Virus record (IMG/VR): IMGVR_UViG_3300048599_000902
Location: 1 to 32,730 of that record
DNA from: a virus
Lineage: Duplodnaviria > Caudoviricetes
Strand: one strand, 5' to 3'
Length of the DNA: 32,730 nucleotides
The notes beneath the pieces are model-generated. The model saw nothing but the letters and a program-made list of their open reading frames with translations. It was not told where the DNA came from and did not search any database. Below are positions 15,553-18,930 of the stretch, piece by piece (the first letter of the stretch is position 1; each line of letters begins with the position of its first letter). Made by a program: the position numbers and the translations under genes.

Positions 15553-16994
15553 CACTCGAGGATCTCCGGGCCGCGATAGGTCGCGACGAGCTCGCGAAAG
15601 CTCGCGAGCTCGACTCCGTCGCGGCTTCGGCACAGGAGCGACTTGTCTCTCTCCTTGGTGCGCAGGTGTCGGCCTGGCGTAGGAAAGTGGATGGCCGCGG
15701 GACCTTGAGCCGCGAAGCTTTCGAGGGGGCCGCCGCTCCGAGTGTGAGCGAGGACCTCGTACGTGAGACAGAGAAGCTCCTCACGGTGTCCTATCTCCTC
15801 GGTCGCGATCATGTAGGCTCACGCCTTGACTTGGCCGATCCCGATCCGGAAGTTCCGGCCATCTCGCTCGATGAAGCGGTGAAATTCGCGAAAGCGCGCG
15901 TTCCCCTCACACGTGCCGAATGGACCACACTCGAGCCAGAACTCCGTTTCCGGGCCTTTACGGTAGCCGCTCTCTCGACGCATGACAACATCGAAAAGGT
16001 CAGGCAGATGTCCATCAAGGCGGTTGAGGACGGCACGCCTCTCTCTGAGTTCTGGACCGAGGCCAATGCCCTCGATGCCGCAGGCCTCGGCTCATCGCCC
16101 TGGTACTGGGAGACCGTCTATCGAACAAATACCCAGACCTGCTATAACGCCGGCCGCGCCGCTGAATTCACTCGGACGCAACCAGAATATCTAGAGTTCG
16201 TCGGCATCGAAGATGGCCGCCAAACGGAGATATGCGCGGCCAGGTCTGGCGTGATCCGCCCCGCCTCGGATCCCTGGTGGCGTTTGAATTGGCCACCCCT
16301 GCATTTCAATTGCCGTTCCACGGTACGCGCCGTCTATCAGGAAGAGGTTGATCTCCTTCGCGAGACGAACCCTAATTGGGAACCAACAGCTACAGATACC
16401 CTTACTCATGATTCGCCGGCCAAGGGATTCGGCGCAAATCCTGTTTCGAGCGGCAGCTTCTATAAGCTTACTCCGGCCATGATCGACAGAGCGAAGCAAT
16501 ACGGCATCCTCGACGACATCAAGGCGCTGGGCAAGACGCTCGGGCTTCGTTACGATCCCGTCTCCCTCTCCTCAGTTGCAAGTGAATCTGGCGTGCCCTC
16601 GATAGACAAAACAATTCCTGCTGATAGTGGAGATCGGGCCGCCCTCAGAAAAAACGCAAAGGAAACTTTGAACGCGCTTCGTAATCAGTCCTTCACCAAT
16701 ACCGCCCTTGGAGAGGAAGTCACGCTCAATAAAACGGGCATTGATCACGCCGTCTCTTTTGCTGGGGATCCCACGAAGCTTGCAGTCCTCGACCATATCC
16801 CGGATATCATGAAGGCGGCGACCGATTTCTCGGTCGAGCCCGAGGCCCACGGCAACCCCAGCTATACGGAGGTACTGCGCGGCAAGGCCGTCCTCGAGGT
16901 GAATGGCCAACGGAATCTCTTTGCAGTGGTACTGAAGCGAAAGAAGGACGGGACGCTTGTATTTTACGATCTCATGCCGTGGGAGCAAAAATAA
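15510..16994 (+). CDS. MuF/gp30-like head morphogenesis protein with C-terminal LPD3/BECR-like domain; frame opens at 15510, track start GTG 15666
   Basis: RAFTVA, TVYRTN...YNAGR, DGRQTEIC, WPPLHFNCRSTV; extra ~120-aa C-terminal domain (NKTGIDH...VFYDL). Confidence 0.88.
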   Translation, partial: RCKKKATSPAEARVALEDLRAAIGRDELAKARELDSVAASAQERLVSLLGAQVSAWRRKVDGRGTLSREAFEGAAAPSVSEDLVRETEKLLTVSYLLGRDHVGSRLDLADPDPEVPAISLDEAVKFAKARVPLTRAEWTTLEPELRFRAFTVAALSTHDNIEKVRQMSIKAVEDGTPLSEFWTEANALDAAGLGSSPWYWETVYRTNTQTCYNAGRAAEFTRTQPEYLEFVGIEDGRQTEICAARSGVIRPASDPWWRLNWPPLHFNCRSTVRAVYQEEVDLLRETNPNWEPTATDTLTHDSPAKGFGANPVSSGSFYKLTPAMIDRAKQYGILDDIKALGKTLGLRYDPVSLSSVASESGVPSIDKTIPADSGDRAALRKNAKETLNALRNQSFTNTALGEEVTLNKTGIDHAVSFAGDPTKLAVLDHIPDIMKAATDFSVEPEAHGNPSYTEVLRGKAVLEVNGQRNLFAVVLKRKKDGTLVFYDLMPWEQK

Positions 16995-17064
16995 AGCCGA
17001 GGGAGTATCGGCTTGCCAGCCAAACCAATGCTGGAGTCTGCTCCCTCGGCTCATACCCCTTGCA
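16987..17064 (-). ncRNA. Putative small structured RNA convergent with the MuF gene
   Basis: Upstream TTGACG-17-TATATT; 11-bp inverted repeat; ends in AAGCCGA/TCGGCTT hairpin followed by TATTTTT. Confidence 0.55.
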
Positions 17065-17070
17065 AGATTA

Positions 17071-17099
17071 AATATAGCGCCTGGATATAGAGGCGTCAA
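17071..17099 (-). promoter_or_regulatory. Sigma70-type leftward promoter
   Basis: TTGACG (17099-17094), 17-nt spacer, TATATT (17076-17071). Confidence 0.65.
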
Positions 17100-17206
17100 T
17101 ATCGAGACAAAAGGATGGTTCCGCCGACTTCCTAAGGCCATTTCCGTTGTGGTGCGATTCTCTTACAGCATTATCCCCGCAACTTCACAGTTTAATCGTA
17201 TTAGAT

Positions 17207-17235
17207 TTGCGTCGATGGATAAAATGTGGTAAATT
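17207..17235 (+). promoter_or_regulatory. Sigma70-type promoter for 17303..18046
   Basis: TTGCGT-17 nt-TAAATT with TGn extended -10. Confidence 0.55.
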
Positions 17236-17302
17236 ATGCCAATACCGATCAATCGACGCGTCCTTGGGCTTTTTTGAAAAAACGCGTCTTCAGAGGTGAA
17301 CG

Positions 17303-18046
17303 ATGACAAAAAACTTCAGCGCCTCAGAGCTCGCTCGTCTCGCGGCTGTGACCCCGCGGGCGGTGTATCAGTGGATTGAGGCATGCCCGGCGGAACTGAA
17401 GGCGAGGCTGGGTGATCTACAAATTGCAGGGCGTTTTGACCTCAAGGATGCTCAGGTCATTCTCAAGGCTGGAAGGCGGGAGGAGTTGGCCAACCTCTTG
17501 GGAGAACTATCCCTGGCCCAGGGATTCATCCCTCCAGAGCCCGAGCCTGAGTTCTTTGGAGAGGTTGTCTTTGTCGCCCCGCCCAAGCGTGGCCGACCTG
17601 GGCATCGAAGGATTTCTGCATGGGTCGCCCTTGAGGATCTCGCTGGAGCGATGGAAAACAGGGACCGGGTTACGGCTGCTCTTTACCGAGCGAATGCAGA
17701 GATGGAGACGATTCACGATGCCACATATGTCGCCATGGAGACTATCCCGTCAGATATCCTGGCACCAATGATCGCTCGCCTTGAATCAGCCGGGGATCAG
17801 CTCGAAGAGTTTCACCGTAATCATGCAGATGAAACTGGGGAGCTGTGGATACCTGGTAAAAGAATTGCAGCGGCGCTCGGCTGGAGTAATAGACTTGTCG
17901 CTACTCGTGGATGGAGGACACCCTGGGCATCCCGGCCACATCGGGATGAACGAGGAGTTGACGAGGGCCTTGAGTACGAATTATCGAGTCTGCCCGAGGA
18001 GCTTCGCGTGCCAATCCTGCGGTATCTTATGTCCATAGCCGCATGA
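17303..18046 (+). CDS. DNA-binding protein: N-terminal HTH plus C-terminal Mu-type DNA-binding domain
   Basis: SASELARLAAVTPRAVYQWI; RIAAALGWSNRLV...W...LEYELSSLPEELR; GAGGTG RBS. Confidence 0.7.
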   Translation: MTKNFSASELARLAAVTPRAVYQWIEACPAELKARLGDLQIAGRFDLKDAQVILKAGRREELANLLGELSLAQGFIPPEPEPEFFGEVVFVAPPKRGRPGHRRISAWVALEDLAGAMENRDRVTAALYRANAEMETIHDATYVAMETIPSDILAPMIARLESAGDQLEEFHRNHADETGELWIPGKRIAAALGWSNRLVATRGWRTPWASRPHRDERGVDEGLEYELSSLPEELRVPILRYLMSIAA

Positions 18047-18159: not shown

Positions 18160-18930
18160 ATGAGCAAAGCAACATCGTACATCGACAAGATCATCCTCGG
18201 TGACTGCCTCGAAGTTATGCCACACCTCGAGGCGGCCAGTATCAACCTCATCCTCTGCGATCTACCCTACGGCGTGACGGACTGCGTCTGGGACAAGAGG
18301 CTTCCCCTCGACCGTCTCTTCCAGGAATACAAGCGCCTGCTTAAGCCCCGAGGAGCTATCGTCCTCACTGCGACCCAACCCTTTACGACGGATCTCGTCA
18401 ATGCATGTCGAGCCTGGTTCCGCTACGACCTCGTCTGGGACAAGTCGGCTCCTGTCGGATTCCTCAACGCAAACCGCATGCCTCTTCGTCGGCATGAATC
18501 AATCCTCTTATTCTATGAACACCTCCCCGTCTACCATCCACAATTTGCAAAAGGACAGCCCTACAAGTCGAAAGGGCATGGCATGAAGAAGCCTGGCGTT
18601 TACAAGGCGACGCCTACGGCCTCCATAGATAATCCGGGGCGCCGTTACCCTACCAGTATCCTTGAGTTCCCGCGCGAGACGAATGGAGGAGGGCACAGGC
18701 ACCTCTATCACCCAACCCAGAAACCGCTCGCCCTCTTTGAATACCTTATTGAAACGTACACTGAACCTGGAGCCATTGTCCTTGACAACTGCATTGGTGC
18801 CGGGACAACGGCTTTGGCGAGCATCGCAACTGGTCGGCACTTTATCGGTATTGAGAAGGATCCTGTCTTTGCCGCGTGCTCCAGCGAACGTGTGGCCGCG
18901 GCCAAAGCTGAACGCGGGCAAGCGGCCTAG
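18160..18930 (+). CDS. Orphan N4/N6 DNA methyltransferase (beta class)
   Basis: GDCLEVM, DLPY, HPTQKP, VLDNCIGAGTT, FIGIE motifs; no restriction gene nearby. Confidence 0.92.
   Translation: MSKATSYIDKIILGDCLEVMPHLEAASINLILCDLPYGVTDCVWDKRLPLDRLFQEYKRLLKPRGAIVLTATQPFTTDLVNACRAWFRYDLVWDKSAPVGFLNANRMPLRRHESILLFYEHLPVYHPQFAKGQPYKSKGHGMKKPGVYKATPTASIDNPGRRYPTSILEFPRETNGGGHRHLYHPTQKPLALFEYLIETYTEPGAIVLDNCIGAGTTALASIATGRHFIGIEKDPVFAACSSERVAAAKAERGQAA

What the first reader, a model, noticed from the sequence alone, without database searches (positions are those of the whole stretch)
16630..17099. MuF toxin-like domain paired with a convergent small RNA instead of an immunity protein
Seen: MuF carries an extra ~120-aa C-terminal domain and no small immunity ORF follows it. 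Instead a leftward promoter (TTGACG-17-TATATT, 17099-17071) points into an ~80-nt unit with an 11-bp stem (AGCCGAGGGAG/CTCCCTCGGCT) enclosing a CCAGC/GCTGG hairpin. It ends at the MuF stop codon in AAGCCGA-TACTCCC-TCGGCTT-TATTTTT, a terminator whose stem is mutually exclusive with the long stem. Known: MuF proteins can carry polymorphic toxin domains, usually with protein immunity genes; by eye this domain resembles LPD3/BECR-fold RNases. Inference: a virion-delivered nuclease-like effector controlled by a dedicated RNA (type III-like or antisense antitoxin).
Basis: partly seen in the sequence, partly recalled or inferred. Interest (0 to 1): 0.85.

Follow-up and report, generated by a model that had tools for sequence, protein, structure and literature searches.

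The report
Small-RNA partner of phage head nucleases
A phage head-protein gene ends in a predicted RNA-cutting domain and is followed, on the opposite strand, by a conserved promoter-like site and a predicted 77-base folded RNA; related genes carry such a unit behind RNase-type domains but a small protein gene behind peptidase domains, so the RNA likely serves as the antidote in place of an immunity protein.

Summary
Observation confirmed and extended. The MuF gene of this Mu-like provirus ends in an LPD3 domain whose model best matches BECR RNases (Z 5.5-6.2). Behind its stop lie a reverse TTGACG-17-TATATT box, a covarying ~60-nt stem-loop and a U-run. All three are kept in close relatives, and the RNA unit is duplicated in one.

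The unit follows the domain type. Among 47 MuF orthologue variants, strong reverse promoters follow 6/6 LPD3, 7/10 PBECR2 and 2/2 CdiA_C domains, but 0/12 peptidase domains (11/12 have a small ORF instead) and 0/7 short MuFs. Inside giant polyvalent genes they follow 16/16 LPD3/MuF_C/PBECR1 domains and 0/13 others.

Best reading: an RNA antidote that binds the virion-borne nuclease. It would work like a type III antitoxin but is not a member. Transcription, toxicity and binding are untested; folding does not pick a strand; His361 is not family-wide. Ten literature searches found no description. The scan earlier saw such units inside polyvalent genes on other DNA (e1-9712188, e1-2668651).

The parts
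15666..16994 (+). MuF minor head protein gene with C-terminal LPD3 domain (start codon uncertain), between the portal gene and later head genes of a Mu-like provirus
15996..16325 (+). Phage_Mu_F domain (residues 111-220)
   Evidence: 50 bits over cut-off 29.6
16632..16991 (+). LPD3 domain, predicted BECR/colicin-like RNase fold; His361 (16746-16748) is invariant in the subfamily, Tyr434 (16965-16967) is conserved family-wide
17071..17099 (-). sigma70-type promoter-like site TTGACG-17-TATATT facing the gene end
   Evidence: hexamers kept with unrelated spacers in relatives
16987..17064 (-). predicted small RNA of about 77 nt; start inferred from the -10 box, end from the U-run
   Evidence: transcription not shown
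16995..17051 (.). outer stem, 16995-17005 paired with 17041-17051; 3 pairs change on both sides across 8 units
17016..17034 (.). inner stem CCAGC/GCTGG, 100% paired in 8 units, 2 pairs with compensatory changes (3 in the set that includes L184)
17033..17039 (-). invariant AGACUCC core, kept in all 8 units and in the more distant L184
17007..17029 (-). candidate pseudoknot helix: loop AUUGGUU (17029-17023) with AGCCGAU (17013-17007); 94.6% of cells paired on minus, 67.9% on plus; no two-sided change; chosen after inspection
16987..17014 (-). local terminator-like hairpin and U-run (UUUAUUUUU) overlapping the MuF stop codon

Best explanation
The MuF gene ends in an LPD3 domain predicted to be a BECR-fold RNase, and a conserved reverse promoter-like site behind it would make a ~77-nt structured RNA that likely binds and neutralises that domain, taking the place of the immunity protein that follows peptidase-type MuF domains. 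Steps: (1) shown: the architecture, its conservation and covariation, and the coupling of the unit to RNase-type domains. (2) From the literature: MuF proteins are head components proposed to deliver their C-terminal effector with the DNA (PMC5512222, PMC5576092); untested for this phage. (3) Inferred: host sigma70 RNA polymerase transcribes the RNA independently of the silent late operon, in the lysogen and right after DNA entry. Pointing backwards and stopping at a U-run at the domain end would avoid firing the downstream capsid genes. (4) Inferred: the folded core (invariant AGACUCC, covarying inner stem, possible pseudoknot) acts as a decoy or inhibitor specific to its own nuclease subfamily. 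It would protect lysogens and producer cells, while non-lysogens meet the nuclease first. Some antisense damping of the mRNA may add to this.
For: Domain and fold: LPD3 at 55.6 bits; model pLDDT 85; the top 7 VIA rows are all CDI or TA toxin entries (6cp9 Z 6.2, rmsd 3.2, 88 aligned; 7m5f 6.0; RelE 1wmi 5.6; BrnT 3u97 5.5). Module swap among 47 distinct MuF C-termini: reverse-promoter score >=9.5 behind 6/6 LPD3, 7/10 PBECR2 (the other 3 keep a TG-extended TATACT at the same distance) and 2/2 CdiA_C, versus 0/12 HExxH peptidase-type and 0/7 short MuF; median 11.6 vs 4.4. A small ORF abuts 11/12 peptidase domains and 0/6 LPD3. In L012/L014 the small ORF that abuts the peptidase of L102 sits behind the RNA unit, which looks like the remnant of a cassette swap. 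Inside 8 polyvalent ORFs: 16/16 LPD3/MuF_C/PBECR1 domains versus 0/13 other domains (ART, methylase, helicase, RadC, LPD1 and others; lowest 11.3 vs highest 10.7). Of 29 LPD3 matches in 401 genomes, 21 have a reverse promoter, 1 a forward one and 4 an upstream reverse one. A U-run follows on the minus strand in 24/28 units versus 4/28 in the mirror control. RNA: 5 pairs change on both sides in 8 units, with invariant unpaired bases. The model finds the motif only beside this LPD3 subfamily among 34 sources and 69 genomes (one extra weak hit, E 0.019, not examined). L012 holds two tandem copies. Held-out L184 keeps the core and promoter with a different terminator. Plain antisense needs neither invariant loops nor RNase specificity (inference).
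Against: No transcript, toxicity or binding data. Folding z-scores do not favour the minus strand across 28 units (15/28, p 0.81), and in this family the plus strand folds better (paired cells 92.8% vs 87.3% for the simple hairpin). His361 is present in only 8/33 LPD3 sequences in my rough alignment, and MuF_C domains, called inactive in phage Mu by PMC5512222, also carry units, so many domains may have nothing to be neutralised. Fold scores are middling (no Foldseek match at E<=0.001; Z under 8). 0/8 weak CdiA_C-like domains and 1 of 2 unassigned domains have no reverse promoter. Phage Mu gp30 has none. DUF6883 BECR domains on MuF have a putative protein immunity gene (bioRxiv 10.64898/2026.08.28.747851). 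The 10 PBECR2 loci are one tight clade and the 8 RNA units are related, so counts overstate independence. The pseudoknot was chosen after inspection, has no two-sided change, and L184 breaks 1 of its 7 pairs.
Confidence: 0.5

Rival explanations
1. Cis-antisense silencing (type I-like, or like BTP1 STnc6030): the reverse RNA pairs with the 3' end of the MuF message, or its promoter collides with late transcription, and keeps leaky nuclease expression or superinfecting relatives down.
For: The RNA is by construction fully complementary to the sense hairpin and overlaps the stop codon. A prophage antisense RNA over late genes blocks superinfection in BTP1 (PMC7067206, passages). RNA sequences differ between nuclease families.
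Against: It does not explain why 0/12 peptidase and 0/13 other domains lack the unit, why unpaired bases are invariant, or why a second copy sits further from the gene in L012. It could not act on protein delivered by a virion (inference).
Confidence: 0.2
2. Ribonucleoprotein effector: the domain is mainly an RNA-binding module and the small RNA is its cofactor, guide or cargo, packaged with the head protein or assembled after entry to act on a host target such as tRNA or a defence RNA.
For: His361 is absent from most LPD3 domains while Tyr434 (28/33) and a basic residue at 424 (23/33) are kept. MuF_C copies also carry units, and PMC5512222 suggests RNA binding for the inactive Mu domain. One unit (L154) folds as a tRNA-like cloverleaf. 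DUF3800-type protein-associated RNAs are a precedent without known function (PMC5737381).
Against: The exchange of the RNA unit for a small ORF when the domain becomes a peptidase fits an immunity role better. No target complementarity was searched for.
Confidence: 0.15
3. The working structure is the sense hairpin in the MuF mRNA: the nuclease binds or cuts it to limit its own synthesis, and the reverse RNA only masks it.
For: The plus strand folds better in 5 of 6 LPD3 relatives (z -4.4 to -5.4 vs -1.3 to -3.8; L012 is weak on both). An invariant G.U pair works only on plus.
Against: Two variable positions keep pairing only in the minus-strand pseudoknot helix. Promoter and U-run both point to a discrete minus-strand RNA. 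There is no strand preference across families.
Confidence: 0.1
4. Ordinary punctuation: an AT-rich intergenic stretch with a terminator and a chance promoter-like match.
For: Raw promoter and terminator counts in the region do not exceed shuffles.
Against: Conserved hexamers with free spacers, covariation, persistence inside coding linkers (24 reverse vs 4 forward strong sites in 66.9 kb of ORF) and domain specificity.
Confidence: 0.05

Closest known systems
MuF polymorphic toxins with protein immunity (Jamet et al. 2017, PMC5576092; passages read)
   Same: MuF head protein with an exchangeable C-terminal effector domain in a temperate-phage packaging module; the peptidase-type orthologues here show the classic small downstream ORF.
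   Different: [quoted passage not shown] Here the LPD3 gene has none and is followed by a reverse promoter and structured RNA; LPD3 does not appear in that paper's text by my search (one search did not list it).
PBECR/LPD3/MuF-C domains of polyvalent proteins (Iyer et al. 2017, PMC5512222, passages; Pham et al. 2026, bioRxiv 10.64898/2026.08.28.747851, abstract, passages and section 10)
   Same: Same domain families, same fusions to MuF, predicted RNases packaged in virions.
   Different: LPD3 is named once in Iyer et al. and not assigned a fold in the passage seen; it is not named in Pham et al. (0 occurrences; also 0 for 'ncRNA' and 'non-coding'). No adjacent RNA or antisense promoter appears in the passages read.
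Type III toxin-antitoxin systems ToxIN, CptIN, TenpIN (review PMC5086642; passages)
   Same: An endoribonuclease paired with a family-specific small structured RNA, possibly pseudoknotted, sometimes repeated.
   Different: Type III RNA lies upstream on the same strand as tandem repeats, co-transcribed and cut by a MazF/Kid-fold toxin. Here it lies downstream on the opposite strand, usually as one copy with its own promoter, and the protein is a BECR-like domain fused to a virion protein.
STnc6030 antisense RNA of prophage BTP1 (Owen et al. 2020, PMC7067206; passages); 3'-convergent type I antitoxins of Bacillota (recalled, no paper read)
   Same: Prophage RNA antisense to late genes, expressed in the lysogen.
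   Different: STnc6030 is 786 nt and acts by a proposed base-pairing mechanism. This unit is about 77 nt, self-terminating, covarying and tied to one class of protein domain.
DUF3800, drum and skipping-rope RNA motifs (Weinberg et al. 2017, PMC5737381; passages; supplement unreadable)
   Same: Diverse small structured RNAs with 3' terminators, each linked to a protein domain encoded nearby, in either orientation.
   Different: No Rfam match here; different partner domain as far as the main text shows. The unread supplement could name related partner domains.

Membership tests
MuF polymorphic toxin family | N-terminal MuF domain in a phage packaging module | tested here: met
   Terminase, portal, MuF, HDPD and capsid genes in order
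MuF polymorphic toxin family | exchangeable C-terminal domain among orthologues | tested here: met
   LPD3, PBECR2, CdiA_C, HExxH-type or no extension on orthologous MuF
MuF polymorphic toxin family | small immunity ORF directly downstream | tested here: not met
   0/6 LPD3 loci versus 11/12 peptidase loci
MuF polymorphic toxin family | toxicity of the C-terminal domain | not testable with these tools
   needs an expression assay
LPD3 (PF18798) | score over the curated cut-off | tested here: met
   55.6-59.7 bits vs 27; nearest Atlas clusters are LPD3
BECR fold, colicin-like group | helix plus meandering beta-sheet matching BECR RNases | tested here: inconclusive
   best matches are 6cp9, 7m5f, RelE and BrnT but Z 5.5-6.2, and no Foldseek hit at E<=0.001; points to BECR without proving it
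BECR fold, colicin-like group | conserved His in the pre-alpha helix, with nearby basic residues | tested here: inconclusive
   H361 invariant in 7 close relatives but in 8/33 across LPD3, and absent in L184; not superposed on a known active site
Type III toxin-antitoxin | antitoxin repeats upstream, same strand, one operon with a terminator before the toxin | tested here: not met
   the unit is downstream with an opposite-strand promoter; the portal gene lies upstream
Type III toxin-antitoxin | ToxN/CptN/TenpN (MazF/Kid-like) toxin | tested here: not met
   Pfam gives LPD3 only; top fold matches are CDI/RelE/BrnT entries
Type III toxin-antitoxin | pseudoknotted RNA | tested here: inconclusive
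   candidate helix 94.6% and 91.8% paired with one-sided changes only
Type III toxin-antitoxin | RNA binds and inhibits the protein | not testable with these tools
   no RNA-protein folding or assay available
Type I (antisense) toxin-antitoxin | RNA complementary to the toxin mRNA | tested here: met
   covers the 3' UTR hairpin and last codons, if the mRNA extends there
Type I (antisense) toxin-antitoxin | small, usually hydrophobic stand-alone toxin (definition from abstract of PMC6563280) | tested here: not met
   124-aa soluble alpha/beta domain fused to a 442-aa head protein
Known Rfam families, tRNA | covariance-model or ARAGORN match | tested here: not met
   0 matches at E<=10 in 16500-17400; none over gathering score in 16 related loci; 0 tRNAs in 38 loci

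The most novel reading that the evidence does not exclude
Phages and other mobile elements use a widespread, undescribed module: each virion-borne RNase-type domain (LPD3, PBECR, MuF-C, even the unrelated CdiA_C fold) comes with its own small RNA gene written on the opposite strand just behind it, inside coding linkers when the domain is internal. The RNA is a made-to-measure inhibitor or cofactor of that domain. This would be RNA immunity for a polymorphic toxin system, and would make polyvalent proteins arrays of protein-RNA pairs.
Probability: 0.55. Interest if true: 0.9.

Novelty: new variant of a known kind. Interest (0 to 1): 0.8.

Why it matters
MuF effectors and polyvalent-protein BECR domains have been predicted RNases without known targets or known self-protection since 2017. 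If the small reverse RNA is their antidote, RNA antitoxins extend from MazF-like type III toxins to colicin-like tRNase folds and to proteins delivered by virions. It would account for MuF toxin genes that lack immunity ORFs and for a recurring 'SI-----VN/CQ' linker motif that is really a promoter on the other strand. It also gives a large natural set of co-evolved RNA inhibitor-nuclease pairs. The test is simple: a 124-residue domain and an 80-nt RNA in laboratory E. coli.

Tried and rejected
Expression: no RNA holder was listed for the region; this is no evidence either way.

Rfam and ARAGORN gave no family; PADLOC no match; PHROGs one family of unknown function.

Motif scans of viral contigs: of 45 loci for the 16-mer, 4 were true units. 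The others lay in unrelated DNA, as did 4 of the 5 loci inspected. A gapped pattern returned only the 4 known contigs.

L003 matched in a non-homologous frame and was dropped. The 189-aa minus-strand ORF 16572-17141 over the unit is not conserved in length or start (53-66 aa from ATG in 4 of 6 loci); rejected as a gene. The 247-aa ORF at 17303 was rejected as immunity.

Terminator/antiterminator switch rejected: both stems end at the same U-run. A tRNA-mimic reading holds by eye and by folding for L154 only. A D-loop-like look of the UUGGU loop is recalled resemblance, not tested.

Strand by folding energy across families: undecided. Searches used off-register structure strings of mine and are void; replace them.

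The profile search of 1.84 billion representatives and the wide fold search did not run, so the protein family's full range and folds that Foldseek ranks low are untested. The full-length model was poor (pLDDT 53.5) and was not used.

Genome sampling was limited to one phylum (relatives of G001/G002); outside it I have only viral contigs and three Burkholderia-type phages, which show a stem and a reverse TATAAT but weak -35 boxes.

Papers 10.64898/2026.04.10.717836, PMC10910872 and 10.64898/2026.04.20.719267 (passages) were not relevant; the 'LPD3' hit in the first was LPD38.

Full report
Setting. The window is a 32.7-kb provirus record with Mu transposase, AAA ATPase, repressor, gp27, terminase, Mu portal, MuF, decoration and capsid genes. 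Close relatives of the domain lie in Spirochaetota assemblies. The MuF ORF is 15666-16994 on the plus strand.

Observation. All elements are present: LPD3 at residues 323-430, an 11-bp stem starting one base after the stop, an inner CCAGC/GCTGG stem, a reverse TTGACG-17-TATATT site at 17099-17071, and a minus-strand U-run at the stop. Raw counts of promoter-like and terminator-like sites in 4 kb equal chance. The 67-nt unit folds far better than shuffles on both strands (z -3.9 minus, -6.6 plus). Rfam has no match.

The protein. A six-sequence model of the domain has pLDDT 85. Foldseek gave no match at E<=0.001. Realignment of its top 1000 chains ranked the K. pneumoniae 342 and S. marcescens CDI toxins first (Z 6.2 and 6.0, 87-88 residues, rmsd 3.2-3.5), then RelE, BrnT and the E. 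coli 3006 CDI toxin. That these are BECR RNases, mostly tRNases in the colicin-like group, rests on bioRxiv 10.64898/2026.08.28.747851 (section 10) and on recall. The scores are moderate, so the fold is likely, not proven. H361 is invariant in 7 close relatives but found in 8 of 33 LPD3 sequences in a rough alignment, whereas Y434 is in 28 of 33. Catalysis is plausible here and doubtful family-wide.

The RNA in close relatives. Six other units from five loci (L002, L092, L094, L010, L014) plus two tandem copies in L012 give 8 distinct units with the window's. The promoter hexamers are kept while the spacers diverge. Five pairs change on both sides; the inner stem is 100% paired. Unpaired or weakly paired bases are invariant (minus strand AGACUCC, UGGU, AGC). 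On the minus strand the inner loop can pair with the segment after the stem: 94.6% of cells, against 67.9% for the mirror on plus, with two positions alternating U.G/U-A and G-C/G.U. This would be an H-type pseudoknot nested in the outer stem. I chose it after inspecting the alignment, it has no two-sided change, and the sequences are related. A held-out homologue (L184) keeps the core, adds a compensatory change in the inner stem, uses a different terminator hairpin and breaks one of the seven pairs. The simple hairpin scores better on plus (92.8% vs 87.3%), so structure alone leaves the strand open. A covariance model of the unit matched only loci of this LPD3 subfamily among 34 sources and, in 69 genomes, the one genome of that subfamily plus one weak unexamined hit.

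Natural swap experiment. Searches gave 68 MuF loci; with L012 and L013, 70 were examined. Three had no hit, three were cut before the stop, and one ended 3 nt after it. The rest reduced to 47 distinct C-termini, of which 35 were scanned with Pfam (36 proteins including the cut one). The others were grouped by near identity, by an HExxH motif seen by eye, or by having no extension. With a sigma70 weight matrix of recalled approximate frequencies, a reverse site scoring 9.5 or more lies within 260 nt of the stop in 6/6 LPD3, 7/10 PBECR2, 2/2 CdiA_C, 1/2 unassigned, 0/8 weak CdiA_C-like, 0/12 HExxH and 0/7 short MuF genes (the threshold was set afterwards, the medians 11.6 vs 4.4 need none). A same-strand ORF of 40 aa or more abuts 11/12 HExxH genes, 0/6 LPD3, 0/2 CdiA_C and 4/10 PBECR2 (TTG starts of varying length, 42-502 aa), 3/8 weak CdiA_C-like and 4/7 short MuF genes. 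The PBECR2 loci are one clade, and the PBECR2 and L100 units do not fold better than shuffles in the first 85 nt on the plus strand. In L012 and L014 a homologue of the 52-aa ORF that abuts the L102 peptidase lies behind the RNA unit, consistent with replacement of a peptidase by nuclease plus RNA (inference).

Generality. In 401 genomes of one phylum, 23 had LPD3, 29 matches in all. A reverse site scoring 11 or more follows 21/29, against 1/29 forward and 4/29 upstream. Many of these domains are internal in proteins of up to 5284 aa, where the promoter is read in frame as SI-----VN/VK or CQ. Twelve such ORFs hold 24 strong reverse and 4 forward sites in 66.9 kb. For 8 of them (58 of 82 pieces scanned), 16/16 LPD3, MuF_C or PBECR1 domains and 0/13 other domains are followed by a site. 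Ten of the 16 were the LPD3 domains that selected the ORFs; six were new. Among 28 units picked for having a promoter, a U-rich run lies 45-100 nt downstream on the minus strand in 24, against 4 in the mirror control; folding z does not differ between strands. Three phages with 27% identical domains show a stem after the stop and a reverse TATAAT. Phage Mu gp30 overlaps the next gene and has no such site.

Mechanism. Shown: a promoter-stem-U-run unit on the reverse strand is coupled to RNase-type domains and alternates with small ORFs by domain type. Inferred: it is transcribed; the RNA recognises the protein; the protein is a virion-borne nuclease. I put 0.5 on an RNA antidote that binds the domain, 0.2 on cis-antisense silencing, 0.15 on a ribonucleoprotein with another job, 0.1 on a sense-hairpin feedback and 0.05 on chance. 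Missing catalytic residues and the better plus-strand folding weigh against it.

Comparison and novelty. It is a MuF polymorphic-effector locus without the usual immunity ORF (PMC5576092: 89.4% of 191 have one; passages). It would work like a type III antitoxin but fails that family's gene order and toxin fold (PMC5086642, passages). Ten full-text searches returned no paper describing RNAs or antisense promoters behind LPD3/PBECR/MuF-C domains. The library lacks most subscription papers; the supplement of PMC5737381 could not be read and that of the BECR preprint is closed, and either may bear on novelty. Earlier notes of this scan report the same design inside polyvalent genes and as captured arrays (a few lines each). 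I reached the pattern before reading them; the tie to RNase-type domains and the swap with protein immunity come from my calls. Verdict: real, conserved, widespread and apparently undescribed; function untested. Interest 0.8.

Noticed in passing
L154, about 20-110 nt after the MuF stop (2605-2720), minus strand: The reverse unit behind an unassigned C-terminal domain folds as a tRNA-like cloverleaf with a GGTTCGAATCC T-arm under a TTGAAA-16-TATAAT promoter; ARAGORN and Rfam do not call it. Possible tRNA decoy for a tRNase.
   Followed up: partly
L134-L148 (PBECR2 clade), 0-115 nt after the stop, minus strand: Two hairpins whose loops hold CCUGG and CCAGG, a possible kissing-loop pair, under a TG-extended -10 box.
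   Followed up: no
L115, L116, L118, L145 after the stop: Weak CdiA_C-like domains lack a reverse promoter; L116 has a duplicated GCGAAGTG.CAGG motif shared with L145, followed by a plus-strand terminator-like hairpin: perhaps a same-strand RNA partner.
   Followed up: no
L012:3361-3600: Two tandem RNA units under one reverse promoter, separated by a further hairpin (CCCGGT..ACCGGG); L014 from the same assembly has one unit with the same promoter region.
   Followed up: partly
L080 and L081, about 215 nt after the stop: A much longer conserved unit (about 190 nt) between the LPD3-like gene end and a near-perfect reverse promoter.
   Followed up: no
L169 codon ~1880; L170 codons ~188 and ~1361; L169 codons 2379 and 2429: Strong in-frame reverse promoters with no Pfam domain before them may mark unrecognised BECR-type domains; L169 has two sites 50 codons apart behind one MuF_C.
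   Followed up: no
window 17303-18046 and 18160-18930: A variable cargo slot follows the unit: a 247-aa protein with a weak N-terminal HTH (homologue in L092) and an N6/N4 DNA methylase, inserted between MuF and the head protease-like gene.
   Followed up: partly
window 17078-17095: The promoter spacer is itself an inverted repeat (GCGCC..GGCGT, flagged as a hairpin); not conserved in relatives.
   Followed up: partly
L065, L084, L066: Stand-alone or terminal LPD3 genes whose reading frame runs on into the RNA stem, showing how an intergenic unit can become a coding linker.
   Followed up: partly
L072 (LPD3 match with an internal TAG); L069 (unit replaced, an apparent insertion follows): A broken LPD3 gene keeps its reverse promoter (score 14.8); a truncated copy lacks it, while its intact relative L071 has it.
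   Followed up: no
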